From assembly GCA_965228855.1 (NCBI GenBank), contig CBDDIJ010000002.1:1920001-1984000 (forward strand): a DNA stretch of 64,000 bases. The letters are read 5' to 3'. The position numbers and the translations under genes are program-made. The notes beneath the pieces were generated by a model. The model ran no database searches. It was not told the DNA's origin and was given only the letters and a program-made list of their open reading frames with translations. Source of the DNA: Candidatus Obscuribacterales bacterium (GTDB lineage Bacteria > Cyanobacteriota > Vampirovibrionia > Obscuribacterales > Obscuribacteraceae). Position 1 is the first letter of the stretch, and each line of letters opens with the position of its first letter. Of the stretch, positions 1,363 to 11,817 are shown one piece after another.

Positions 1363-2676
1363 TCATGAGACGCCCGCTCGCATCGAGTTTGATGCAGCAG
1401 CCAATTGTCGGGAATGAGCGCCGACTGTCAGCGGGCTTGTTAAAGCAACGCATTCTGTTTCCTCCTGCAGTGAGATAAATTGGTCATGAAGAAGTTGGGT
1501 CGCGCGACTAGAGTCGGCTTCATCTATGAGAATTGAAATGGTCGACTCGCTGCTTGAATAGAGTCGCGGTTCAATTCTTGCGGAATTCAGGGTGGCAATT
1601 GCGCGCGAGCGAATCTCAGGAGCATTACCGATTCCCGCACCGACGAGACTAACTCTAGTGACGTTCAAATCAATGAGAACGTCTTTTGCGCCGCACTGAT
1701 TTTTCAAGTCCTCCAGAATCGTTCTAAAGATTGCTTCATCGGAATATCTCAATGAAAGCTGCACGCAGCGCGTGTTTTCGCAAGACCCTTTGCCTTGGGA
1801 AACACTGTCGACGATTATGTTGTCGCGAATGAAGAGAGTTTCGCATTCGGTGAGGAACGAGAACTGCCAGGGAATATCGATGAATGATACGTATGCTTGA
1901 TGCGAGTCTAATGCGACTCCTTTGACTCTACAAACCTTTTCCACGTTACTGTCTCCTGTAATGAGAGTGCCCGGATTGTCCGGTTTAAAAGTATTTCTGA
2001 CACGCAGCTTGATGCTGAAATCTCTGGCGAGTTCTGCAGCGCGTGGATGCAGTACCTGAGCGCCTGCTCGTGCGAGTTCAATTGTTTCCGAGTACGATAT
2101 GGTGTCGAGCAATTCCGCTTGTTGAAATTTGTTAGGGTCGGTCGTGAATATTCCATCCACGTCCGTGTAGATGTGGCATTCATCAGCACCTGCGGCAGCA
2201 GCCAGGGCTACGGCGGAAGTATCGGAACCGCCGCGACCGAGTGTTGTAATTTCGCCGCAATCGCTTTGTCCTTGAAACCCGGCCACAACGATCACGTCGT
2301 GCTCATCGAGAGCGGCACGAATTGAGCCTTTGCATATATCAACGATGCGAGCGCAACTGTGGATATTGTCGGTTTTAATTCCGATTTGGGCTCCGGTAAA
2401 TGACTTAGCTTTTATTCCGCGTTCCTGTAACGCAATAGTCAGAAGTGCGATGGAAACTTGTTCACCGGTCGAGAGCAGAAGGTCTACTTCGCGCTTGTTG
2501 GGTGTCGTTGAGATTCGTTTGGCCAGATCGTACAGATAGTCCGTTGTATCGCCCATCGCCGATACAACTACTACGCATTTATTTTTCTGTTTGGAAACGA
2601 TGTCTACAACGTGATTGATGCGTCCGATGTTTTTGACGGATGTGCCACCAAATTTGAGAACCGAAATCTTGCTCAT
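1363..2676 (-). CDS. lysC: Aspartate kinase
   Basis: VLKFGGTSV, VVVVSAMGDTTD, TTLGRGGSDTSA, YTDVDG motifs and C-terminal ACT region. Start moved to ATG 2676 (AGGAGG RBS overlapping the metB stop). Confidence 0.95.
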   Translation of the reverse strand: MSKISVLKFGGTSVKNIGRINHVVDIVSKQKNKCVVVVSAMGDTTDYLYDLAKRISTTPNKREVDLLLSTGEQVSIALLTIALQERGIKAKSFTGAQIGIKTDNIHSCARIVDICKGSIRAALDEHDVIVVAGFQGQSDCGEITTLGRGGSDTSAVALAAAAGADECHIYTDVDGIFTTDPNKFQQAELLDTISYSETIELARAGAQVLHPRAAELARDFSIKLRVRNTFKPDNPGTLITGDSNVEKVCRVKGVALDSHQAYVSFIDIPWQFSFLTECETLFIRDNIIVDSVSQGKGSCENTRCVQLSLRYSDEAIFRTILEDLKNQCGAKDVLIDLNVTRVSLVGAGIGNAPEIRSRAIATLNSARIEPRLYSSSESTISILIDEADSSRATQLLHDQFISLQEETECVALTSPLTVGAHSRQLAAASNSMRAGVS

Positions 2677-2684
2677 CGCTCCTC

Positions 2685-3953
2685 CTATTTTGTTTGCACG
2701 AGTGCACGTTCGACTGTGCGAGTTTCCAGCTTCGAATTCACGTCTGTGCTTTTGTTGGTCAGGCTTTGCTGATTGCATGGTGAACCGGAGAGCGCCTGGT
2801 CGAGATCGGCGATCAAGTCTTCGGCTTCTTCGATGCCGGGCGATAGACGAATTAATCCGTCCACGATGCCGCAGTGTTCTCGGATCTCTTTCGGTATCGG
2901 TTTGTGCGTCATCGTTGCTGGATGGCAGATAAGCGATTTAACTCCGCCAAGGCTTTCTGCCAGTTGGAATAAGTTCGTCGAGCTGACCGTGTTTGCCGCG
3001 AAATCAATTCCGCCTTTAACGACGAAAGAAACCATTCCGCCGAAACCGCTCATCTGTTTCGCTGCGAGTTCGTGCTGCGGGTGGCTTGTTAAGCCGGGGT
3101 AGTGAACTGTTTCGACATTCGGATGCGATTCCAGGAACTTCGCTATCGCGAATGCGTTTCGTTCATGCTCTCTCATGCGTAGTTTCAGAGTCTTTAATCC
3201 GCGAAGGACAAGGAAGCAATCGAATGGTCCGGGAACCGCTCCAACAGCGTTGTTGTGGTATTGCAATCGTTCATAAAGATCATCGCTCGATGTGACGATG
3301 GCACCGCCAATGACATCACTATGTCCGCCCAGGTATTTTGTGGTGCTATGAATTATGACGTCGGCGCCAAGTTCCAGTGGTCTTTGGAAATAGGGAGTAG
3401 CAAAAGTGTTATCGACGGCAAGGCGCAGCCCATTTGCATGACAGAGATCGGCGATCGTTCTCACATCAGCTAATCGAAGCAATGGATTCGTCGGTGTTTC
3501 GATCCAGACCAATCGAGTTTTTTCGTTTATAGCCTGTTCAATTTCTTCTATGTTGCGTGCGTTTACGTAAGTGAATGATAAACCGTAGCGTGTTAAAACT
3601 TGCTCGAATAGCCTGTAGACGCCACCATAGACATCCTCTCCCACGATGACGTGATCGCCTGCCGACAGCAGATTTGTAACGGTATAAGCGGCGGATAGTC
3701 CGGACGCGGACGCAAGTGCGTACTTTGCGTTTTCCAGTGACGCAATACATTGTTCCAATGCGGTTCTTGTCGGATTGTGCGTGCGAGCGTATTGATACCC
3801 TTTGTTTACTCCAAGTTCGTCGAGAACGAATGTGGAAGTTTGAAATATCGGTGTGTTTAGTGCTCCTGTGCTTGGATCTGCGTCTTGACCGGCATGAATA
3901 GCGCGGGTTGAGAACTGCTGCTGGTTATTGGGATATTGATTGTAAACACTCAT
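2685..3953 (-). CDS. metB: Cystathionine gamma-synthase/lyase (Cys/Met metabolism PLP enzyme)
   Basis: STRAIHAG, YARTHNPT, ETPTNP, DNTFATP, HSTTKYLGGHSD (PLP lysine), LAESLGG. AGGAG RBS. Synthase versus lyase activity cannot be resolved by eye. Confidence 0.9.
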   Translation of the reverse strand: MSVYNQYPNNQQQFSTRAIHAGQDADPSTGALNTPIFQTSTFVLDELGVNKGYQYARTHNPTRTALEQCIASLENAKYALASASGLSAAYTVTNLLSAGDHVIVGEDVYGGVYRLFEQVLTRYGLSFTYVNARNIEEIEQAINEKTRLVWIETPTNPLLRLADVRTIADLCHANGLRLAVDNTFATPYFQRPLELGADVIIHSTTKYLGGHSDVIGGAIVTSSDDLYERLQYHNNAVGAVPGPFDCFLVLRGLKTLKLRMREHERNAFAIAKFLESHPNVETVHYPGLTSHPQHELAAKQMSGFGGMVSFVVKGGIDFAANTVSSTNLFQLAESLGGVKSLICHPATMTHKPIPKEIREHCGIVDGLIRLSPGIEEAEDLIADLDQALSGSPCNQQSLTNKSTDVNSKLETRTVERALVQTK

Positions 3954-3981
3954 TGGCGTAACTCCTGTGTGTGTGAATGCG

Positions 3982-4015
3982 AAAAAACGCCCCCTCTCAT
4001 CCGAGAGGGGGCGTT
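3982..4015 (-). terminator. Intrinsic terminator (attenuator) in the metB-lysC leader
   Basis: Minus strand AACGCCCCCTCTC-GGAT-GAGAGGGGGCGTT-TTTT: a perfect 13-bp stem plus U tract, about 30 nt upstream of the metB ATG. Confidence 0.9.
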
Positions 4016-4043
4016 GAAGTTCTTGATTCTGTTAGCTAATTTC

Positions 4044-4127
4044 TTATGCTATAAACCGTGAACAGCAACGCCACCCTCTCGCGGAGGGCATTTGCATTGC
4101 CATAGACATAGTCACGTGTTTTTGCAT
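4044..4127 (-). CDS. Met-rich attenuator leader peptide, 27 aa (MQKHVTMSMAMQMPSARGWRCCSRFIA)
   Basis: ATG 4127 to TAA 4044, with Met at codons 7, 9, 11, 13 and Cys-Cys at 21-22. It overlaps a segment complementary to the terminator 5' arm. Confidence 0.75.
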   Translation of the reverse strand: MQKHVTMSMAMQMPSARGWRCCSRFIA

Positions 4128-4133
4128 GCCACC

Positions 4134-4161
4134 ATTATGGTCGAACGAAATACTTTGTCAA
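4134..4161 (-). promoter_or_regulatory. sigma70-type promoter for the leader-metB-lysC transcript
   Basis: Minus strand TTGACA-16 nt-CATAAT, then 6 nt and the leader ATG, so the predicted +1 is at or next to the A of ATG. Confidence 0.75.
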
Positions 4162-4260
4162 AGGTTAGCGCGCTCTATGTAACGTTGCTGCAATCTCGTT
4201 CCATATGTATGCAATTTCGATCTGGTTTCAAGATTCGACTTGCTGATGAACTGCAGCAGT

Positions 4261-6570
4261 CTAGAGTTTGGACTGAGCTGAGATAATGAAGTCCATTGGA
4301 TCCTTGTCTTCACTTTTGAGTGACGTAGCATTTATACACTCTGTCATCAATCCGCATTTTGGAAGAGCTGCGCGAATTCGAGCCTCGGTCGCCTCGGTCA
4401 TGTTGCTGTAGAGAATGCCTGTTTGACTCAGTTTTCGCAGGCTGAGCAGAGTATGGTAAATCGCCTTCTCTGATGCTTTGATGTGACTGAGGTGTAGTGC
4501 CTCCAACTTTTTCAGCTTACTAATTACTTCCAGATCGTTATCATCGAGTGGAATGCCTCCCAGGCTGAGCTGCTGCAGATTGGGGCATTTTGCTATTAGG
4601 GGCACGGTCGCGCGTGTTGTTTTTGTGCCGCTCAACCCCAGGGCTTTCATTTTGGCGCCTTTTTTAGTTGCCACCAATTCGACCGTTCTATCCGTAATTT
4701 CCGGACAATCATTCAATTGTAGGTCGTTCAGTTTCGGAAGTGACAGGAGCTTTTCTACGCAATCATCATCACAGGGCGTTGAGTTTAGTACGATACCTTC
4801 AAGTGTTCGACATCCGCTGAGCACTTTGATACCGTTCCTGGTGATATCGGTGACGCCGACGCTCAAGAATTTGAGCTTCGGAAAGCGGCATAGTTCTGCC
4901 ACGACTTCAGGGCTAATATTTTTGCAGTTATCCAAATAAAGCGACTGAAGATTTTTCATCTTCTTGAGCTTTCGAACTTTTGCGAGGGTGATGTTGGTAT
5001 CTTGCAGCGCCAGCTTTTCAATGTTATCCAGCTTGACCAGTTCTGCGAAGCCCGCGTCAGTCAGGTTTGTCGCTGACAGGTCCAGGATTGTCACATTTGG
5101 CGTTCTCAGGTACTTCAATCCGGTTCCAGTTATGGAAGTGTGGTTCAAACTTACTGGAAGAATTTTGTCTTTGTATGTGTAATTCTGGAAGCAAACCAAT
5201 TCTTCATCTCTAAGCAATGTCGAGTTGTACGGCGTATAGTGCTGCTTTGGTGAACGCTCCATGTAATCAGAGTCGCCGCTAGAGTGAAAGAAACTGCTTA
5301 TTTTTTTTGGTTTTTCTGTTATCGGTTTGATCTTGATTGACTCTATGTCGTCCATCCCCGACGTCTCTACTTTTGCGCTCTTTATCGACTTGTCGTGACG
5401 TTTGAATCCGGAGGCGGCTTTAGCTGCCCCGCTATGAGGATCGTGTAGGACAAATGCTGCAAGCCCAAACGCCGCCGCGAGAATTCCGCCGACCGCGACA
5501 ACTGGAAGGGCGGCATGGATGACTCTCAGCGTCATGAATACTTTGTCGCGCTTCGTCGACTCGGTCTTTGCACCACCGGCAGTGCTATCCGGTTTCGCTT
5601 CCAAATCGTGCTTCACTCGCGAAAGCGTCTCCCTGACTTCGATGACACTTTGTGGGCGATCCTTCGGATTTTTCGAAAGCATCGAGTCAAGCAAACGATC
5701 CAGCTGATCGGGAATTTCCCATGCGGGTGCCAGTTCCGAAAGTAGTGGCGGCTGTTGATCAATGTGCTGGCGAAGCAGGTCAAAAATATCTTCGCTGTAA
5801 AACGGGGTCTCGCCGGCTATCATTCGAAAGGCGATACAGGCTAAACCGTAAATGTCGGAGCGTTCGTCACCCAGTCGACCTTGCGCCTGTTCCGGACTGA
5901 TGAACAGCGGGCTCCCGATTGCGGCTCCTGTATCTGTTCGTGATTTCTCCTGGTCGGGATCTTTTGCAAGACCGAAGTCCACTACAACCGCAAGCGGTTC
6001 CGTATCAAAATTTTGCACCATTATATTCGACGTCTTCAGATCTCGATGAGCGATGCTCTTTGAATGCGCGCTCTTTAATCCGTCGCAGATCTGAATCATT
6101 AGATTGAGCGCCAGAGGCAGGGGCAGGCGCCCTTCTTGTTCAATAATTTCGTCAAGACTTTTTCCGTCGACGAAACTCATAATAAGGTAGGCTCGATTCT
6201 TGTGAGTCTTGCCAAAGTTGAGAATCGAAACCAGGTTTGGATGATCTAGCTTGGCGGCGGACTTTGCTTCCTTTTGAAAGCTGATCAAGCCGCGTTCATC
6301 TATATGGCGTAAAACCTTGATAGCGACTCGCTTGTCAAGGTTGCTGTCGTGTGCGCTGAATACTGATGCCGTGGCGCCGCTGGAAATGTAGGTAATATCG
6401 CTGTATCGAGAACCTAGAGCTGACGCGACATCGTCAGGCATCTGGTTTGAATTGAGGCTTTTGATAGCTCTCAAAGTGGGATTCCTCGGGGCTCTAGGGA
6501 TTCGAATGCATGGTCGCAGCCGAGCAAAGCTCTTGCGAATACGCAATGCTGTACCAGAAATATATTCCAC
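4261..6570 (-). CDS. Ser/Thr (Hanks) protein kinase with TM helix and C-terminal leucine-rich repeats
   Basis: VAIK, HRDLKTSN, DFG, SPEQ, DIYGL motifs; TM ALPVVAVGGILAAAFGLAAFVL; LxxLxLxxT-type repeats. True start probably downstream (for example ATG 6441). Confidence 0.9.
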   Translation of the reverse strand: MEYISGTALRIRKSFARLRPCIRIPRAPRNPTLRAIKSLNSNQMPDDVASALGSRYSDITYISSGATASVFSAHDSNLDKRVAIKVLRHIDERGLISFQKEAKSAAKLDHPNLVSILNFGKTHKNRAYLIMSFVDGKSLDEIIEQEGRLPLPLALNLMIQICDGLKSAHSKSIAHRDLKTSNIMVQNFDTEPLAVVVDFGLAKDPDQEKSRTDTGAAIGSPLFISPEQAQGRLGDERSDIYGLACIAFRMIAGETPFYSEDIFDLLRQHIDQQPPLLSELAPAWEIPDQLDRLLDSMLSKNPKDRPQSVIEVRETLSRVKHDLEAKPDSTAGGAKTESTKRDKVFMTLRVIHAALPVVAVGGILAAAFGLAAFVLHDPHSGAAKAASGFKRHDKSIKSAKVETSGMDDIESIKIKPITEKPKKISSFFHSSGDSDYMERSPKQHYTPYNSTLLRDEELVCFQNYTYKDKILPVSLNHTSITGTGLKYLRTPNVTILDLSATNLTDAGFAELVKLDNIEKLALQDTNITLAKVRKLKKMKNLQSLYLDNCKNISPEVVAELCRFPKLKFLSVGVTDITRNGIKVLSGCRTLEGIVLNSTPCDDDCVEKLLSLPKLNDLQLNDCPEITDRTVELVATKKGAKMKALGLSGTKTTRATVPLIAKCPNLQQLSLGGIPLDDNDLEVISKLKKLEALHLSHIKASEKAIYHTLLSLRKLSQTGILYSNMTEATEARIRAALPKCGLMTECINATSLKSEDKDPMDFIISAQSKL

Positions 6571-6827
6571 GGGTATATCGGTTTTTCGCGTCTAAATTCT
6601 GCTCGAAATCCAGAAGAGGCAAGGGCGCCCGGATTTCGATCATTAAACTTTCACGCAGCGTTAAGACCACAACGTTTAGTTGAATAAAGACTACGAGCCA
6701 GTCGCCTATTTACTACCAAATGTGATCGACTGTGTGATGAGGAACGGTCACTTTCGTAAACGTAACCGACATGCGGTAAAACGTCGATCCGGCTACCGAG
6801 GCTCAACCATTCGAGTTCACGGTGCGT

Positions 6828-8972
6828 TCACTCGGGCTGTATCATCTCCAGGCAGTCTTCGACGTTATCACCACTTTTGGGTTTGTTGCCCGGCGTCATA
6901 AACATGCAGTCTCGCCATCGTCTGCGAAGTTCGTCTACGGACTCTGTCGGCGCATCTATTGAAAGCATGAAAATTTTGCGCATGTTTTTCAGCTTGTATA
7001 AGTGAGCAATCCCATTCGCGGAACACATTACTTTTCCGATGTACAGGTATTTTAGTTCGGGAAGATCTCCGAAAATTTTCATCTGCTCATCACCGATTAC
7101 CACTCCTGGTATCTCAATGAATGACAGCCTTTTGCATTTAGCCAGGCAGGCAAGATCTTCAGGTTGTGTGTTGGTAGCACCAAATCCGATGAGCTGAAGA
7201 TTTGGAAGTGCAGTCGTAATTGCGTTTAGCGTTTTGCCCGTCAATTTTTCGCAGCGATTCAAGCGAACATCGATTAGATGTGGCAACTTGAAAAGCGGCT
7301 CTATTCCTGCGTCCGTGAGGTCGGCTCCGTCAAGTTGAACAGTGACTAGGTTGGTGCATTTTGTCAGACAGGCTGCACCTTTATCGGTAACCTTCGATTT
7401 CTTATCGCGCGCGACAAGGACGAGCAGAGATTTGATTTTTGAAACCTCTTCCATCATCTCATCATTCAAGTTTGGATTGGTGTCGAGGCCCAGTTCCATC
7501 AACTTGGGCAGGCGAGACAGCAGGCGCATTTCCTTCGCGCTCACCTTCGTACTTGCCAGAGTCACTGCATGCAAATTGTTCAAGCTCGCGAGAGTCTCGT
7601 ACCCGATAGGTTGTAGGTTTGTGTAATTGAGCTCCAGGCAGAGGTTTGGAATATGTGCCAGATATTTGAGACCCTCTCCGGTTATATTGGAGGCAAAGCT
7701 CAAATTGATGTTGGATGTTGGAAGGGCTTGGCCGTCTAAAACTTCTAGATCTGCATCTGTTAAACTGCCGGCGTCTTTTGCCGCAAGTTGGTCCCAGTCC
7801 AGATGACTCATGAATACAGCGTTTTCGAAACGAAACAAGCGGTCAAGTTTCTCGGCTTTTGTTTCCACCTTAGTTGCTTCTGCAGGTTTTCCCTCTAGTA
7901 ATTTATATGCGATTAAACCAAGTACTGATACTACCAGTAGTGCCCCTGCAATTATCGGTATGATAAACTTGGAACGTTTTCGCCGGTTGACTGGTGTGTG
8001 TGCGATCCGGAGCAGGGGCGCTTGTCCCGCTGCAGGCTGTGCCAGGCGCTGACGTTGAATTTCAAGCAAAGCTTCTCTTACTTCTTTGATAGATTGAAAC
8101 CGATCAGCCGGATCTTTTTCAAGCATTTGATCGAGTAAAGGTTGAAGTAAAGGATCGAAATGCAGATGTGGTGCGGCGTCTGTGAGTCGCGGTGGATTAT
8201 CTTCAATGTGCTGACGGAGAAGATCGAACAAATCATCCGACTCGAAAACATATTTACCGGTGATCGCTCGAAAAATGATGCACCCAAATGAGTAGATATC
8301 TGAGCGTTCATCTCCGTGTAATCCCTTCGCCTGTTCGGGACTTATGAATCGAGGCGTACCGCGTAACTTTCCGCTGGACGAACCCTGTCTGGTTTTGTCC
8401 TGCGGTTTTCGTTCTCTTGCTAAACCGAAGTCGACAACAACTGCGTTCACTCCGTCGGTTCCAAAGTTTTGAATGATTATGTTGGATGTTTTCAAATCTC
8501 TGTGTGCAATTTTTTTTCTGTGCGAATGAATCATTCCTTCGCAGATTTGCAAGAAGATTGGTAGCGCGACATCGAATTTGAGAGGACCGCGCTCTTCAAG
8601 CAGATCCTCGAACTCAACTCCTTCCACGAAATCCATAATCAGATAAGCATGGTTTTTCGGCGTGATACCAAAGTTCAGCGTCGCCACTAGATTGCGATGA
8701 TCGAGTTTGCAGGCGGTTTTTGCTTCGTGCTGGAAGTTCATCAGCCGATGCTCGTCAGCGTTCGACAATAGTTTAATAGCAACGCGTTTATCGAGATTTC
8801 TATCCAGCGCGCTAAACACGGAGCTGGTCGCGCCACTCGAAATATATTCTATGTTTGCGAAACGCCCCTCTCCAAGCGCATCGAGCACATCTTGCGGCAA
8901 TTCGCGCTGGTTGAAAACCTCTTCTGTCGCTGAAGCCGTTGGTTCGATATTTGAATTTTGTTCCGCGTTCAT
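6828..8972 (-). CDS. Ser/Thr protein kinase with TM helix and C-terminal LRRs
   Basis: VAIK, HRDLKTSN, DFG, GTPRFISPEQ, DIYSFG; TM FIIPIIAGALLVVSVLGLIAY; LRRs. Confidence 0.92.
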   Translation of the reverse strand: MNAEQNSNIEPTASATEEVFNQRELPQDVLDALGEGRFANIEYISSGATSSVFSALDRNLDKRVAIKLLSNADEHRLMNFQHEAKTACKLDHRNLVATLNFGITPKNHAYLIMDFVEGVEFEDLLEERGPLKFDVALPIFLQICEGMIHSHRKKIAHRDLKTSNIIIQNFGTDGVNAVVVDFGLARERKPQDKTRQGSSSGKLRGTPRFISPEQAKGLHGDERSDIYSFGCIIFRAITGKYVFESDDLFDLLRQHIEDNPPRLTDAAPHLHFDPLLQPLLDQMLEKDPADRFQSIKEVREALLEIQRQRLAQPAAGQAPLLRIAHTPVNRRKRSKFIIPIIAGALLVVSVLGLIAYKLLEGKPAEATKVETKAEKLDRLFRFENAVFMSHLDWDQLAAKDAGSLTDADLEVLDGQALPTSNINLSFASNITGEGLKYLAHIPNLCLELNYTNLQPIGYETLASLNNLHAVTLASTKVSAKEMRLLSRLPKLMELGLDTNPNLNDEMMEEVSKIKSLLVLVARDKKSKVTDKGAACLTKCTNLVTVQLDGADLTDAGIEPLFKLPHLIDVRLNRCEKLTGKTLNAITTALPNLQLIGFGATNTQPEDLACLAKCKRLSFIEIPGVVIGDEQMKIFGDLPELKYLYIGKVMCSANGIAHLYKLKNMRKIFMLSIDAPTESVDELRRRWRDCMFMTPGNKPKSGDNVEDCLEMIQPE

Positions 8973-9895
8973 CTCATTGCGAGAATAGAAAGAAGCAATT
9001 CTTCAAATGCATTCTTATCCAGCTGGGATGCGACCTGAACCTTACGCCCGCCGAAGAGAGTTGTGAAAGTTCTGCCCTGGCTTTTGCCGCTGACGTTGGT
9101 ATCCAGCCGCATATCTTTGAATTTAAACAGGCTCGGCTCGATTGCTGCAGCCGCGGTTATGGTATCCCAGAAGTAGTATTCAAAGCCCTTAACCAGCGAC
9201 CAGAGTTTCGTCGCAAGTTTTGATGCTTTCGACTTTTCAGCTTGAATCTCAAGCTTTTGCAAAAATTCTTTTGTGACCGGCAGCTGATTAGTCAAATCTA
9301 GCGTTATAAGTTTAATTGGAATTTTGGTGTCGAGAATGGCTTTGAAAGCGCCCGGATCCGCGTAGAGATTCCATTCGGCGCTGCCATCGTGCCCCTCTTC
9401 CTCAACGTTGCCTGGTACGCTGATGGCACCGCCCATGATGACCATCTCTTTGACCTTCTGGGTTAGATCCGGTTGTTCAGCAAACACTTTGGCGACGTTT
9501 GTGAGTGGACCCGTCGTGACAATAGTCATAGGGACCTTGGTGTTAGCCAGGCAGTCCGCGAATACTGATTCGCAACGCCGCGCGCGCCCCGCCTGGTAAG
9601 GTTCCTTCAAATAATTTTCGCCGAACAAAGGCAACTCGTTGATGATGTGGCTTTCCCTTCTCCAGTTGTCAGGGAATGGATTCGGCATTTCGTCTGGAGT
9701 CATGGCTATCTCGGCGCCTTCAAGATCGAGATAGGTTCCAATCTTCAGCATGACCTCCAGTCCCTGCTCGGCGAAGCAGTCGCCGTTTGTCACGCCGATA
9801 GCCTGCAGTTCGATTTCCGGCGCGAGCCAGAGCAGAATTGTGCTTATCAGATCATCTACGTGACCGTCGTGGTCGTGAAGGACAGGCTGACCCAT
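8969..9895 (-). CDS. Nucleoside hydrolase (IU-NH superfamily, purine-preferring IAG type)
   Basis: DHDGHVDD Ca-binding motif, TGPLTN, MGGA, AEWN, YYFWD. Its stop overlaps the kinase start (ATGA). Confidence 0.9.
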   Translation of the reverse strand: MGQPVLHDHDGHVDDLISTILLWLAPEIELQAIGVTNGDCFAEQGLEVMLKIGTYLDLEGAEIAMTPDEMPNPFPDNWRRESHIINELPLFGENYLKEPYQAGRARRCESVFADCLANTKVPMTIVTTGPLTNVAKVFAEQPDLTQKVKEMVIMGGAISVPGNVEEEGHDGSAEWNLYADPGAFKAILDTKIPIKLITLDLTNQLPVTKEFLQKLEIQAEKSKASKLATKLWSLVKGFEYYFWDTITAAAAIEPSLFKFKDMRLDTNVSGKSQGRTFTTLFGGRKVQVASQLDKNAFEELLLSILAMR

Positions 9896-9996
9896 CGAGG
9901 CTGACGCTCTCTAGTATGTTGACATCCGGGAAACCAGAAATCAGTTTACTGCGAGCGGGTCCCTCCTTGCATTAGCACATGAGAAATCGTTGAGGT

Positions 9997-11817
9997 TTAT
10001 AACAGGGGAAAGCCGTCTTCGTGTTTCTTCTTGGCTGTATTCACGATTTTTATGCCTGGACGCGCTTGCTTAAGCGCTTGAATAGCCTGGTTCGTGATTT
10101 TCGGACAGCCGTCGATTTTGAGGTCGAGAAGGCGAGGCATACGCGCCATGCGCTTCATAGTTAGATCCGTGATCTCTTGATTTCGCGAAATCGTCAGCGT
10201 GTCAACGTTTAGCGCGAGTATTGGCTTGATTGATTCGTCATTGAGCTCGTTGAATGATACATTCAGGTCTCGAAGTTCAGGCAGATTTTTCAACTTCTTA
10301 TATCCGTCTATTCCAACCGGAGTATAGGACAAGTCCAGTCGTTGAAGATGGGGCGCGATTTTTTGCAGAGAGTCGATTGATTCATGTGTAAGCTTTCTGC
10401 ATCCTGCCAGCCCTAGATATGTGAGAGTCGGGAGTTCGGAAATTTGCGCGATGCCTTCGTCCGTAATCCAGGAATAGCTTATGTTGAGGTGTTTGAGTTT
10501 CTTCAAATCACCGATGAAATGAAGGTGCTCGTCCTTGATCTTAGATTCCGGCATATCAAGTTTTTCGACTGGCTCTTCCTTCAAATATTGGAGACCCCAA
10601 CCTTCCAATCGCATGGCGTACAGCTGAACAGACTTCACTCGTTTGCCGCGCAGATCTTTGAAGTACTCGTCTCCCATTCTGCAGTCGATGTTGGTCCATG
10701 TATCCATGTCGTTCTTCCGAAACGGCATAAACTTCCAGTCCTTTTCTTCGACGCCTGTGTAAGTGTAGGATAGCGGTCTCACACTAACTACGGCCTTCTC
10801 CTCGTTTCTAATTGCATTAAGTGAGAACATGCTCGTCGCTGCGATTAAAACTGTTGAGGCTGCCAGGGCGATTCGATGCTGGCGGATAAAGGAGGATGCC
10901 TGGAATTTATTTTTCGTGTATTCCTTACCGTTGTCCGGAAATAGTAATTGTGTTTCTTCCGGCAACAGTGCAAGTAATTCGGACTTGAGTTGATAAAACG
11001 ACTGGTAGCGATCGTTTTTATCCTTCGACATGGCCGTTGAAATAATCTGATCGAGGTCCTCTGAATAGTCGCCTGTATAGCCGCGTTCCGCAAGCTTTGG
11101 CACAGGGCTGTTGACGTGGAGGTCGAATAGCTCGATTTGGTTTTGTCCTTTAAATGGCGGCGTCTTCGTCAACGTTTCAAACATCAAGCACCCGAAGGAG
11201 TAGATGTCCGTGCGATGATCGATTGGTTTTGCTTGAAATTGTTCAGGACTCGAATAGGTTGGTGTTCCGATGACTACACCGGTGCGTGTTAGCTTCTGAT
11301 CGCTGGAAACTACCTTGGCTAGTCCGAAATCGACGATGCGAACGTTGCTGTTATCGTTGGATGCATCTACCAACATCACGTTGCTCGGTTTCAGATCCCT
11401 GTGCATAACGCCCTGACCATGAGCATGCGCAAGTGCATCGCAGATCTGGACAAATACTTTTATTGCCTTTTCCAGAGGCATCGGACCGCTTTCTTTCAGT
11501 GCTTGCGAGAGCGTACCCCCCTCCACCAGATCCATTACAAGAAATAAGAGGCCGTTTTCGCCTCTTCCGAAATCGAGCACTGTGACTATGTTTGGATGAT
11601 GGAGTTTGCTCGCCAGTCTCGCCTCTTGTTGGAAGCGTACGGCAAGCTCTTCAATTGCATGATGGCCCGCGACAACCTTAACTGCTACAGGGCGCGCTAG
11701 CACCGAATCATAGGCGCTGAAAACGCAGGCCATGCCGCCCGCTCCAATACTGCGAATGTTGGCGTATCGGAGCCCTAATGCCGCTTGAATTTGTGAGACG
11801 TCAAATGTACTCGGCAT
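9997..11817 (-). CDS. Ser/Thr protein kinase with TM helix and C-terminal LRRs
   Basis: GAGGMACV, AVK, HRDLKPSN, DFG, GTPTYSSPEQ; hydrophobic IALAASTVLIAATSMFSL; LRRs. Confidence 0.92.
   Translation of the reverse strand: MPSTFDVSQIQAALGLRYANIRSIGAGGMACVFSAYDSVLARPVAVKVVAGHHAIEELAVRFQQEARLASKLHHPNIVTVLDFGRGENGLLFLVMDLVEGGTLSQALKESGPMPLEKAIKVFVQICDALAHAHGQGVMHRDLKPSNVMLVDASNDNSNVRIVDFGLAKVVSSDQKLTRTGVVIGTPTYSSPEQFQAKPIDHRTDIYSFGCLMFETLTKTPPFKGQNQIELFDLHVNSPVPKLAERGYTGDYSEDLDQIISTAMSKDKNDRYQSFYQLKSELLALLPEETQLLFPDNGKEYTKNKFQASSFIRQHRIALAASTVLIAATSMFSLNAIRNEEKAVVSVRPLSYTYTGVEEKDWKFMPFRKNDMDTWTNIDCRMGDEYFKDLRGKRVKSVQLYAMRLEGWGLQYLKEEPVEKLDMPESKIKDEHLHFIGDLKKLKHLNISYSWITDEGIAQISELPTLTYLGLAGCRKLTHESIDSLQKIAPHLQRLDLSYTPVGIDGYKKLKNLPELRDLNVSFNELNDESIKPILALNVDTLTISRNQEITDLTMKRMARMPRLLDLKIDGCPKITNQAIQALKQARPGIKIVNTAKKKHEDGFPLL

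What the first reader, a model, noticed from the sequence alone, without database searches (positions are those of the whole stretch)
3982..4161. Candidate methionine-sensing ribosomal attenuator with a leaderless Met-rich peptide upstream of metB-lysC
Seen on the minus strand, in order: (1) TTGACA-16-CATAAT promoter (4161-4134); (2) an ATG 6 nt later with no RBS; (3) a 27-codon ORF MQKHVTMSMAMQMPSARGWRCCSRFIA with Met at 7/9/11/13; (4) segment 1 GCCCTC (4089-4084), which can pair with GAGGGT (4078-4073); (5) segment 2 GAGAGGGTGGCGTTG (4080-4066), complementary with one bulge to the terminator 5' arm CAACGCCCCCTCTC (4016-4003); (6) a perfect 13-bp terminator plus U tract; (7) the metB RBS. Established: this is the 1:2/2:3/3:4 logic of trp/his/thr attenuators, whereas Met genes are normally controlled by SAM riboswitches, T-boxes or MetJ/MetR. 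Inference: stalling at the Met codons masks segment 1 and frees the antiterminator, giving read-through into Met-pathway genes. I know of no well-characterised Met-codon attenuator; novelty needs a literature check.
Basis: partly seen in the sequence, partly recalled or inferred. Interest (0 to 1): 0.88.

Follow-up and report, generated by a model that had tools for sequence, protein, structure and literature searches.

The report
Methionine-codon transcription attenuator in Melainabacteria
In front of two methionine-pathway genes of an uncultured non-photosynthetic cyanobacterium lies a tiny gene rich in methionine codons that overlaps an RNA stop/go switch; the arrangement is conserved across its relatives and likely lets a ribosome stalled by methionine shortage switch the genes on, a methionine version of the textbook tryptophan attenuator that I found no paper describing.

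Summary
The window is from Obscuribacterales (Vampirovibrionia, 'Melainabacteria'). All 56 loci of this cystathionine gamma-synthase clade that I examined (17 genera) carry the same promoter, a start codon 6-7 nt behind the -10 box, a Met-rich 22-34-codon ORF, an antiterminator and a terminator; 14 of 14 CBS-linked paralogue loci lack it. In 50 distinct leaders, 177 ATGs lie in frame and none in the other frames. Antiterminator and terminator covary, and in a folding model the switch point falls 1-4 codons after the last Met. Related Met-rich leaders precede lone lysC, metK, metY, a SAM hydrolase, a sulfur-carrier-like gene (two leaders in tandem) and an unnamed protein family in six families of the class. 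No Rfam family matches, and this genome shows no SAM-I, T-box or MetJ. No RNA data were available, so the mechanism is untested. Ten literature searches found no Met-codon attenuator; a recalled 2004 prediction (Pasteurellales thrA, Thr/Ile/Met) could not be read. This scan had already noted similar Met leaders on other DNA (Clostridia, Patescibacteria), but none in this lineage. Verdict: new variant of a known kind.

The parts
4156..4161 (-). -35 hexamer TTGACA
   Evidence: 0, 1 or 2 mismatches in 26, 16 and 8 of 50 distinct leaders
4134..4139 (-). -10 hexamer CATAAT; predicted start site at or within 1 nt of 4127
   Evidence: gap to the leader ATG is 6 nt in 23 and 7 nt in 27 of 50 leaders; start site inferred, not mapped
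4044..4127 (-). leader ORF, 27 codons plus TAA, predicted leaderless
   Evidence: homologous ORFs of 22-34 codons in 56 of 56 orthologous loci; Shine-Dalgarno-like pairing in only 2 of 50
4089..4109 (-). control codons: Met7 (4109), Met9 (4103), Met11 (4097), Met13 (4091); a single Thr codon at 4112 lies just before
   Evidence: 177 in-frame against 0 and 0 out-of-frame ATG in codons 2-16 of 50 leaders; 6 of the 7 invariant alignment columns lie in ATG codons
4084..4115 (-). segment 1 (extended): predicted to pair with 4078-4058 as the 1:2 protector hairpin
   Evidence: folds of the growing transcript; -29.6 kcal/mol, 8 of 12 Met-codon bases paired; 3 or more Met-codon bases paired in 49 of 50 leaders; 73% of cells paired, weak two-sided covariation
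4058..4080 (-). segment 2, partner of either segment 1 or segment 3
4003..4080 (-). antiterminator 2:3: 14 outer pairs with one bulge plus inner helices that enclose the stop codon
   Evidence: -37.3 kcal/mol; 47 cells with two-sided change against 27.7 in shuffles; cognate duplex -27.4 against non-cognate -20.3 kcal/mol over 17 genera
3982..4015 (-). intrinsic terminator 3:4, 13 pairs, 4-nt loop, T run; predicted 3' end near 3982
   Evidence: 12 of 13 pairs with two-sided change
3962..3966 (-). ribosome-binding site AGGAG of the first structural gene
2685..3953 (-). metB-type cystathionine gamma-synthase, 422 aa
   Evidence: NF005871 over cut-off; one side of a branch (SH-aLRT 99, quick tree) against CBS-linked paralogues; enzyme activity inferred
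1363..2676 (-). lysC aspartate kinase, 437 aa
   Evidence: NF005154, NF005155 over cut-off; follows metB in 54 of 56 loci, the other two end at a contig edge

Best explanation
This leader is likely a ribosome-mediated transcription attenuator that would read the supply of charged methionyl-tRNA: transcription is predicted to start at the leader ATG, a ribosome short of Met-tRNA would stall on codons 7-13, leave segment 2 free to pair with the terminator's 5' arm, and so let RNA polymerase read on into metB-lysC. With methionine plentiful the ribosome would pass codon 13, enter segment 2 within one to three codons and keep it from pairing with segment 3; the 1:2 hairpin would refold behind it and the 13-bp terminator would end the transcript near 3982. 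Shown: anatomy, conservation, frame-specific Met enrichment, covariation, association with methionine and SAM genes. Modelled: structures and switch point. Inferred and untested: start site, translation of the leader, termination, response to methionine, enzyme activities.
For: Leader in 56 of 56 loci of the enzyme clade and in 0 of 14 CBS-linked paralogue loci. ATG 177/0/0 by frame; Met is 23.6% of residues 2-16; 44 of 50 leaders have 3 or more Met. Peptide tails differ in frame and length while the Met block and helices stay, so codons, not the peptide, are conserved. Covariation of 2:3 and 3:4; cognate segment pairs beat non-cognate ones for 2:3, 1:2 and 3:4 in 0 of 100,000 permutations over 17 genus representatives (related sequences, so not a true probability). 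Mean probability that the terminator arm is sequestered is 0.91 up to two codons before the last Met, 0.74 on it, 0.56, 0.34 and 0.20 one to three codons later; the boundary stays 0-5 codons after the last Met for footprints of 9, 12 and 15 nt. The same model puts the boundary just behind the control codons of E. coli thrL, hisL and pheL. Met-rich leaders of the same layout precede lone aspartate kinase (G061, G008), metK (G052), metY (G125, G115, G145) and SAM hydroxide adenosyltransferase (G220, G168), while sister leaders change codons with the target: Thr before thrS in this genome, Cys/Met before cysD-cysN-sulfite reductase, Phe/Tyr/Trp before DAHP synthase-aroA. No SAM-I, T-box or MetJ match in this 95%-complete genome, with controls ringing.
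Against: No expression evidence was obtained. The full-length equilibrium model shows both states (terminator below 0.5 at some Met codon and above 0.5 at the stop) in only 22 of 50 leaders. In the truncated model the antiterminator returns when the ribosome sits at the stop codon in 40 of 50 leaders, so termination needs kinetics (1:2 refolding first) that I did not model. The model is weak on two of five E. coli controls (trpL, leuL). Two-sided covariation of 1:2 is not above shuffles (22 cells against 14.7, 70 of 500), and for 2:3 the number of pairs with two-sided change is below the shuffled mean (6 against 7.9) on an alignment with visible register errors. Six leaders of one genus keep only 1-2 Met codons. 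Actinobacterial ilvB and leuA leaders are a published case where such a layout did not behave as classical attenuation (PMC1262725, passages). Neither MetA nor MetX was found in the genome, so the substrate of the first enzyme is unsettled.
Confidence: 0.87

Rival explanations
1. Same mechanism but multivalent: the leader reads methionine together with threonine (aspartate kinase feeds both) or cysteine, as the thr leader reads Thr and Ile.
For: Thr is 10.8% of residues 2-16; 11 of 17 genus representatives have 2-3 Thr codons before the last Met; codon 6 (Thr) lies inside the switching window of this leader; Cys codons join Met in leaders before metY and cysD.
Against: This leader has one Thr codon and two genus representatives have none; Ser is as frequent (12.7%), and spacer codons are constrained by pairing with segment 2; threonine has its own leader before thrS.
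Confidence: 0.2
2. The nascent peptide, with a ligand such as SAM or methionine, arrests the ribosome, as recalled for plant CGS1 or TnaC, rather than tRNA shortage doing so.
For: Met-x-Met-x-Met followed by Pro-Ser in 24 of 50 leaders; the target is a cystathionine gamma-synthase, the enzyme under SAM-dependent peptide arrest in plants (recalled).
Against: The sign is wrong: a stall here is predicted to give read-through, so product-induced arrest would induce the pathway. Spacer residues, Met number and the tail vary freely, with frame changes; the Pro-Ser codons form the GC core of the 1:2 hairpin.
Confidence: 0.04
3. An undescribed metabolite- or protein-binding RNA switch controls the same terminator, and the ORF is incidental.
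For: Mutually exclusive helices are also the expression platform of riboswitches; metK and a SAM hydrolase are typical SAM-riboswitch targets.
Against: No Rfam match at gathering score; almost the only invariant bases are in ATG triplets, all in one frame; there is no conserved unpaired core; sister leaders swap codons with the target pathway.
Confidence: 0.04
4. A constitutive small transcript or small protein gene with its own terminator, with only basal leak into metB-lysC or an internal promoter.
For: Strong promoter and strong terminator; no expression data exclude it.
Against: The conserved, covarying antiterminator has no role in such a unit; only 28 nt separate the T run from the metB start; no other promoter-like site was found on the minus strand in 3500-5000; the peptide tail is not conserved.
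Confidence: 0.03

Closest known systems
Classical leader-peptide transcription attenuators (E. coli trpL, hisL, thrL, leuL, pheL; Rfam Trp, His, Thr, Leu leader families)
   Same: Short ORF with codons for the pathway's amino acid, 1:2 / 2:3 / 3:4 helices, intrinsic terminator before the first gene; mechanism as described in PMC1183508 (passages); same switch profile in the model for thrL, hisL, pheL.
   Different: Control codons are Met; predicted leaderless start; no sequence match to any Rfam leader; phylum Cyanobacteriota, for which PMC4833913 states there are no reliable data on attenuation (passage); the ribosome-free RNA favours the antiterminator at equilibrium (above 0.5 in 47 of 50, against 0.06-0.37 for five E. 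coli leaders). PMC3766115 lists His, Leu, Thr, Trp, Ile/Val and Phe as the known specificities (passage).
Predicted Thr/Ile/Met leader of thrA in Pasteurellales (Vitreschak et al. 2004, PMID 15135544; recalled, paper not held)
   Same: Met codons proposed as control codons in front of an aspartate kinase gene.
   Different: As I recall it, a multivalent variant of the thr attenuator, prediction only; here Met is the dominant codon and the targets are dedicated methionine and SAM genes.
Polycysteine leaderless short-ORF attenuators of mycobacteria (bioRxiv 10.1101/834739, passages)
   Same: Leaderless sensor ORF for a sulfur amino acid, repeated in front of several operons ('ribulon').
   Different: Cysteine, and the dissected case acts by hiding the ribosome-binding site; here a conserved intrinsic terminator with antiterminator points to transcription control.
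SAM riboswitches, Met-specific T-boxes, MetJ
   Same: Control the same gene set (metB, metY, metK, aspartate kinase), riboswitches and T-boxes often through a terminator.
   Different: Different sensor; no match at this locus or, for SAM-I, T-box and MetJ, in this genome.

Membership tests
Classical ribosome-mediated transcription attenuator | Short leader ORF with a cluster of codons for one amino acid | tested here: met
   4 Met in codons 7-13; 177/0/0 ATG by frame in 50 leaders
Classical ribosome-mediated transcription attenuator | Control codons match the pathway of the downstream genes | tested here: met
   metB-type, lysC, metY, metK, SAM hydrolase by family models; activities not assayed
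Classical ribosome-mediated transcription attenuator | Intrinsic terminator between leader ORF and first gene | tested here: met
   13 pairs plus T run; hairpin with T-rich tail in 56 of 56 (tail displaced in one); covariation
Classical ribosome-mediated transcription attenuator | Antiterminator that excludes the terminator | tested here: met
   z below -2 against shuffled segment 2 in 50 of 50
Classical ribosome-mediated transcription attenuator | Control codons placed so that a stalled ribosome leaves segment 2 free and a moving one covers it | tested here: met
   model only: boundary 1-4 codons after the last Met at a 12-nt footprint in 17 of 17 genus representatives
Classical ribosome-mediated transcription attenuator | 1:2 protector or pause hairpin | tested here: met
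   predicted in 49 of 50; cognate preference but two-sided covariation not above shuffles; pausing not tested
Classical ribosome-mediated transcription attenuator | [quoted passage not shown] | tested here: inconclusive
   42 of 50 in the full-length model but 10 of 50 in the truncated model
Classical ribosome-mediated transcription attenuator | Super-attenuation when the leader is not translated | tested here: inconclusive
   equilibrium at the decision point favours 2:3 by 14.6 kcal/mol here, median 7.6; the growing chain forms the long 1:2 hairpin first
Classical ribosome-mediated transcription attenuator | Leader is translated and read-through rises on starvation for the amino acid, lost when control codons are changed | not testable with these tools
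   needs reporters, ribosome profiling and 3'-end mapping
Rfam amino-acid leader families (Trp, His, Thr, Leu and others) | Match at the family's gathering score | tested here: not met
   best hit 26.6 bits against 65 (PyrG leader, terminator only); 0 matches in 20 loci
SAM riboswitches and T-boxes | Aptamer or T-box match at gathering score | tested here: not met
   the SAM-alpha genome search rang in no control and shows nothing
Mycobacterial polycysteine leaderless attenuators | Leaderless start of the sensor ORF | tested here: inconclusive
   predicted from a 6-7 nt gap in 50 of 50 and Shine-Dalgarno-like pairing in 2 of 50; start site not mapped
Mycobacterial polycysteine leaderless attenuators | Cys run that pairs with and hides the downstream ribosome-binding site | tested here: not met
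   control codons are Met; the ribosome-binding site lies 16 nt beyond the T run, outside the conserved helices

The most novel reading that the evidence does not exclude
Vampirovibrionia run a class-wide methionine regulon on Met-codon attenuators alone, and the switch is built 'on by default': because the start codon itself needs a methionyl-tRNA, failure to initiate gives read-through instead of super-attenuation, which solves the sign problem that a methionine attenuator would otherwise have. The unnamed 400-450 aa family behind these leaders is then a new methionine uptake or salvage protein.
Probability: 0.3. Interest if true: 0.85.

Novelty: new variant of a known kind. Interest (0 to 1): 0.74.

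Why it matters
Methionine is the textbook amino acid controlled by riboswitches, T-boxes and repressors rather than by leader peptides. A dedicated Met-codon attenuator conserved across a family, with homologues on six kinds of target gene across a class, would add a specificity to one of the oldest regulatory mechanisms known and place leader-peptide attenuation in Cyanobacteriota. It makes a simple question testable: how a translation-based sensor can read the amino acid that also starts translation. The 146-nt leader with a near-consensus sigma-70 promoter can be tested in E. coli. The leaders also annotate genes: they separate the biosynthetic enzyme from its CBS-linked paralogue and point to a methionine-related role for an unnamed Melainabacteria protein family.

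Tried and rejected
Expression: no RNA holder listed; four guessed-RNA runs were contigs, two marked probably DNA besides the best one, and show no start or end; no evidence either way. Rfam: only chance hits to the terminator, none in 20 loci; SAM-alpha search uninformative because no control rang. Second copy in the own genome: model hits other than this leader have E 0.02 or worse; the one opened (C3:235312) is not a leader. A Val-rich candidate (C3:551070) has no long same-strand ORF within 1.7 kb and looks like a gene end; rejected. In the phylum sample, 90 genomes from other families gave six weak hits (E 4e-5 or worse); two were opened and are not leaders: not found in those searched, not shown absent. 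Of 78 metB-like loci from other phyla, 11 had a short ATG-led ORF with 2 or more Met upstream; by eye most are tails of the upstream gene, and I did not test them for terminators. The idea that 'on by default' is special to methionine is not supported: the thrS leader of this genome scores 0.89 and Cys leaders 0.63-0.83. The unnamed family has no Pfam or NCBIfam match, atlas neighbours are unnamed Melainabacteria clusters, hydropathy shows only 2-4 segments above 1.5, and a structure prediction had not finished when I stopped, so its function stays open. The careful tree did not finish; the quick tree is cited. Two papers were not held: PMC6710462 and PMID 15135544.

Full report
Observation. 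The two genes behind it are a cystathionine gamma-synthase (NF005871, 523 bits against a cut-off of 513) and an aspartate kinase. Four or more extra Met occur in 227 of 155,325 comparable stretches of the genome; among 173 promoter-adjacent short ORFs, 7 are followed by a terminator and only this one is Met-rich. The closest named relatives of the first enzyme (87% and 86%) are labelled Candidatus Obscuribacter and Obscuribacterales, so the window is from the non-photosynthetic cyanobacterial class Vampirovibrionia (class name recalled; the atlas labels related clusters Melainabacteria).

Conservation. A search of 104 genomes of the family gave 193 matches at E 1e-60 or better; I examined 70 of them (the best 30, and 40 that I chose from the list). 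Fifty-six carry the leader and 14 do not. All 14 lie directly behind a cystathionine beta-synthase gene and none of the 56 does; the own genome's paralogue has the same context. In a quick tree the 57 leader-bearing enzymes (56 plus one found later) are one side of a branch with SH-aLRT 99. Aspartate kinase follows in 54 of the 56; the other two end at contig edges. The 14 paralogue loci were dropped before the counts below. Leader starts were picked by script as the promoter-adjacent ATG, taking the most Met-rich if several, and by hand in 9 loci. The 56 leaders (17 genera) collapse to 50 distinct sequences. In these, codons 2-16 hold 177 ATG in frame and none in either other frame; 44 have three or more Met; ORFs are 22-34 codons. 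The -10 box lies 6 or 7 nt before the ATG in all 50, and only 2 show Shine-Dalgarno-like pairing, so the leader is predicted to be translated leaderless. Six of the seven invariant alignment columns fall in ATG codons, at 48% mean identity. The peptide after the Met block changes frame and length between genera. One genus (6 genomes) keeps only 1-2 Met, a possible decay or retuning.

RNA switch. The antiterminator of this leader folds at -37.3 kcal/mol and encloses the stop codon. On the plain alignment the terminator shows two-sided change at 12 of 13 pairs, the antiterminator 47 such cells against 27.7 in shuffles though only 6 pairs against 7.9, and 1:2 is not above shuffles for two-sided change. 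Without an alignment, each leader's segment 2 pairs better with its own segment 3 than with those of other genera (-27.4 against -20.3 kcal/mol, 17 representatives, 0 of 100,000 permutations), and likewise for 1:2 and 3:4; relatedness inflates such tests. With a ribosome masked at successive codons on the transcript cut at the terminator loop, the terminator arm is sequestered with mean probability 0.91 until two codons before the last Met and 0.20 three codons after it; the boundary is 1-4 codons after the last Met at a 12-nt footprint and 0-5 over 9-15 nt. The same script recovers the switch of E. coli thrL, hisL and pheL, poorly that of trpL and leuL (22-25 nt upstream assumed). Against a clean picture: on full-length transcripts only 22 of 50 leaders show both states, though this leader does, with terminator probability near 0 at codons 6-10; and the antiterminator returns with the ribosome at the stop in 40 of 50 truncated folds, so termination relies on the local 1:2 hairpin refolding first, which the growing-chain folds suggest but do not prove.

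Specificity from other targets. Two covariance models were run over the order, class and phylum. Of 17 further order-level hits opened, 6 are Met leaders (four before metB-type genes, one of them cut by a contig end, and two directly before aspartate kinase), one is a Cys/Met leader before cysD-cysN-sulfite reductase, two are Cys-rich, two ambiguous, six not leaders. Targets: metK (G052), metY (G125, G115, G145), SAM hydroxide adenosyltransferase (G220, G168), a small protein ending in Gly-Gly with a weak Urm1 hit below cut-off, preceded by two Met attenuators in tandem (G107, G113), and an unnamed 400-570 aa family in 14 genomes of three families. Several of these leaders have a ribosome-binding site, so leaderless initiation is not universal. 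In this genome a Thr-rich leader with the same promoter layout precedes thrS, and in G180 a Phe/Tyr/Trp leader precedes DAHP synthase and aroA. Codons thus track the target pathway, which is the strongest sign that the ribosome reads them. The genome (95% complete) has MetH but no match to SAM-I, T-box, MetJ, MetA or MetX, with controls ringing.

Mechanism. Most likely (0.87) a classical attenuator for charged Met-tRNA: stall at codons 7-13, 2:3 forms, read-through; fast passage, segment 2 covered and then caught in 1:2, termination. Thr or Cys may contribute in some genera (0.2). Peptide-ligand arrest, an unknown riboswitch or a constitutive unit are each unlikely. One open point is what happens without translation. 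The ribosome-free transcript favours the antiterminator in 47 of 50 leaders (by 14.6 kcal/mol here, median 7.6), unlike five E. coli leaders (0.06-0.37). That would suit a methionine sensor, whose start codon also depends on methionine (inference). But the Thr and Cys leaders of the lineage behave alike, and the long 1:2 hairpin forms first, so this remains a hypothesis.

Literature and novelty. Ten searches of the held library listed no paper whose title or abstract describes a Met-codon attenuator or attenuation in this lineage. I read passages, not whole texts or supplements, of PMC4833913 (no reliable data on attenuation in cyanobacteria), PMC1183508 (mechanism and super-attenuation; no occurrence of 'methionine'), bioRxiv 10.1101/834739, PMC2965389, PMC12925634, PMC3766115 (known specificities His, Leu, Thr, Trp, Ile/Val, Phe), PMC1262725 (methionine under S-box control; a caution that attenuator-like leaders can fail the test) and PMC11550727. 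The library lacks most subscription papers; the main review and the 2004 survey were not held, and I recall that survey predicting Met codons in the thrA leader of Pasteurellales. Supplementary tables of genome-wide terminator or leader screens, which I did not open, could list such elements. The scan's own notes hold 128 findings with these words in other genomes, the eight shown being Met or Met/Cys leaders in gut Clostridia, Patescibacteria and others (unchecked AI notes), and none for this lineage or genome. I rate the element a new variant of a known kind: it works like the trp/his/thr attenuators, meets every defining feature that can be computed except two inconclusive ones, is not a member of any Rfam family, and has a specificity and a phylum that I could not find described. 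Interest 0.74.

Noticed in passing
L094 (G000:C3:2639751, + strand), own genome: Thr-rich 28-codon leader with the same promoter spacing and a terminator in front of thrS; switch boundary just behind the Thr run in the model.
   Followed up: partly
L080 (G064:C60:18615-18779, +): Leader with alternating Cys and Met codons and a terminator before cysD, cysN and a sulfite reductase.
   Followed up: partly
L179/L199 (G107:C76) and L184/L198 (G113:C74): Two Met-rich attenuators in tandem before a roughly 110-aa protein ending in Gly-Gly, with a weak Urm1 hit; likely a sulfur-carrier protein.
   Followed up: partly
L178, L180, L181, L182, L209-L211, L213, L214, L216, L217, L221, L223, L224: Unnamed 400-570 aa Melainabacteria protein family with no Pfam or NCBIfam match sits behind Met-rich leaders in 14 genomes of three families; 2-4 hydrophobic segments; candidate methionine uptake or salvage protein. 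Fold not obtained.
   Followed up: partly
L222 (G180:C7:8327-8484, +) and L220 (G074:C1:1053114-1053257, -): Phe/Tyr/Trp-rich leader before DAHP synthase-aroA, and a Tyr-rich leader before a protein with a weak iron-redox-enzyme hit.
   Followed up: partly
L082 (G017:C49) and L085 (G022:C298): Cys-rich leaders with terminators before similar-looking 190-207 aa proteins without Pfam match.
   Followed up: no
L083 (G052:C30) and L081 (G010:C5): Leaders of the same layout with unclear control codons, before a PLP-dependent decarboxylase and an ABC transporter.
   Followed up: no
L032-L036, L039 (one genus): The metB leader keeps only 1-2 Met codons among Lys/Arg codons, and the ribosome-free RNA favours read-through; possible decay or retuning.
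   Followed up: no
own genome, whole: Neither MetA nor MetX was found although the metB-type gene and MetH are present; the enzyme may use O-phosphohomoserine like the plant enzyme (recalled, untested).
   Followed up: partly
L095 (G000:C5:1031500-1039500): Paralogue of the first enzyme lies behind a CBS-domain cystathionine beta-synthase, likely the methionine-to-cysteine operon; metH lies about 9 kb further on.
   Followed up: partly
window 4261-11817, minus strand: Three paralogous-looking Ser/Thr kinase genes with leucine-rich-repeat-like tails (769, 714, 606 aa) around a nucleoside-hydrolase-like gene; a TPR gene follows lysC at 1184 (only the first kinase and the TPR protein were scanned).
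   Followed up: no
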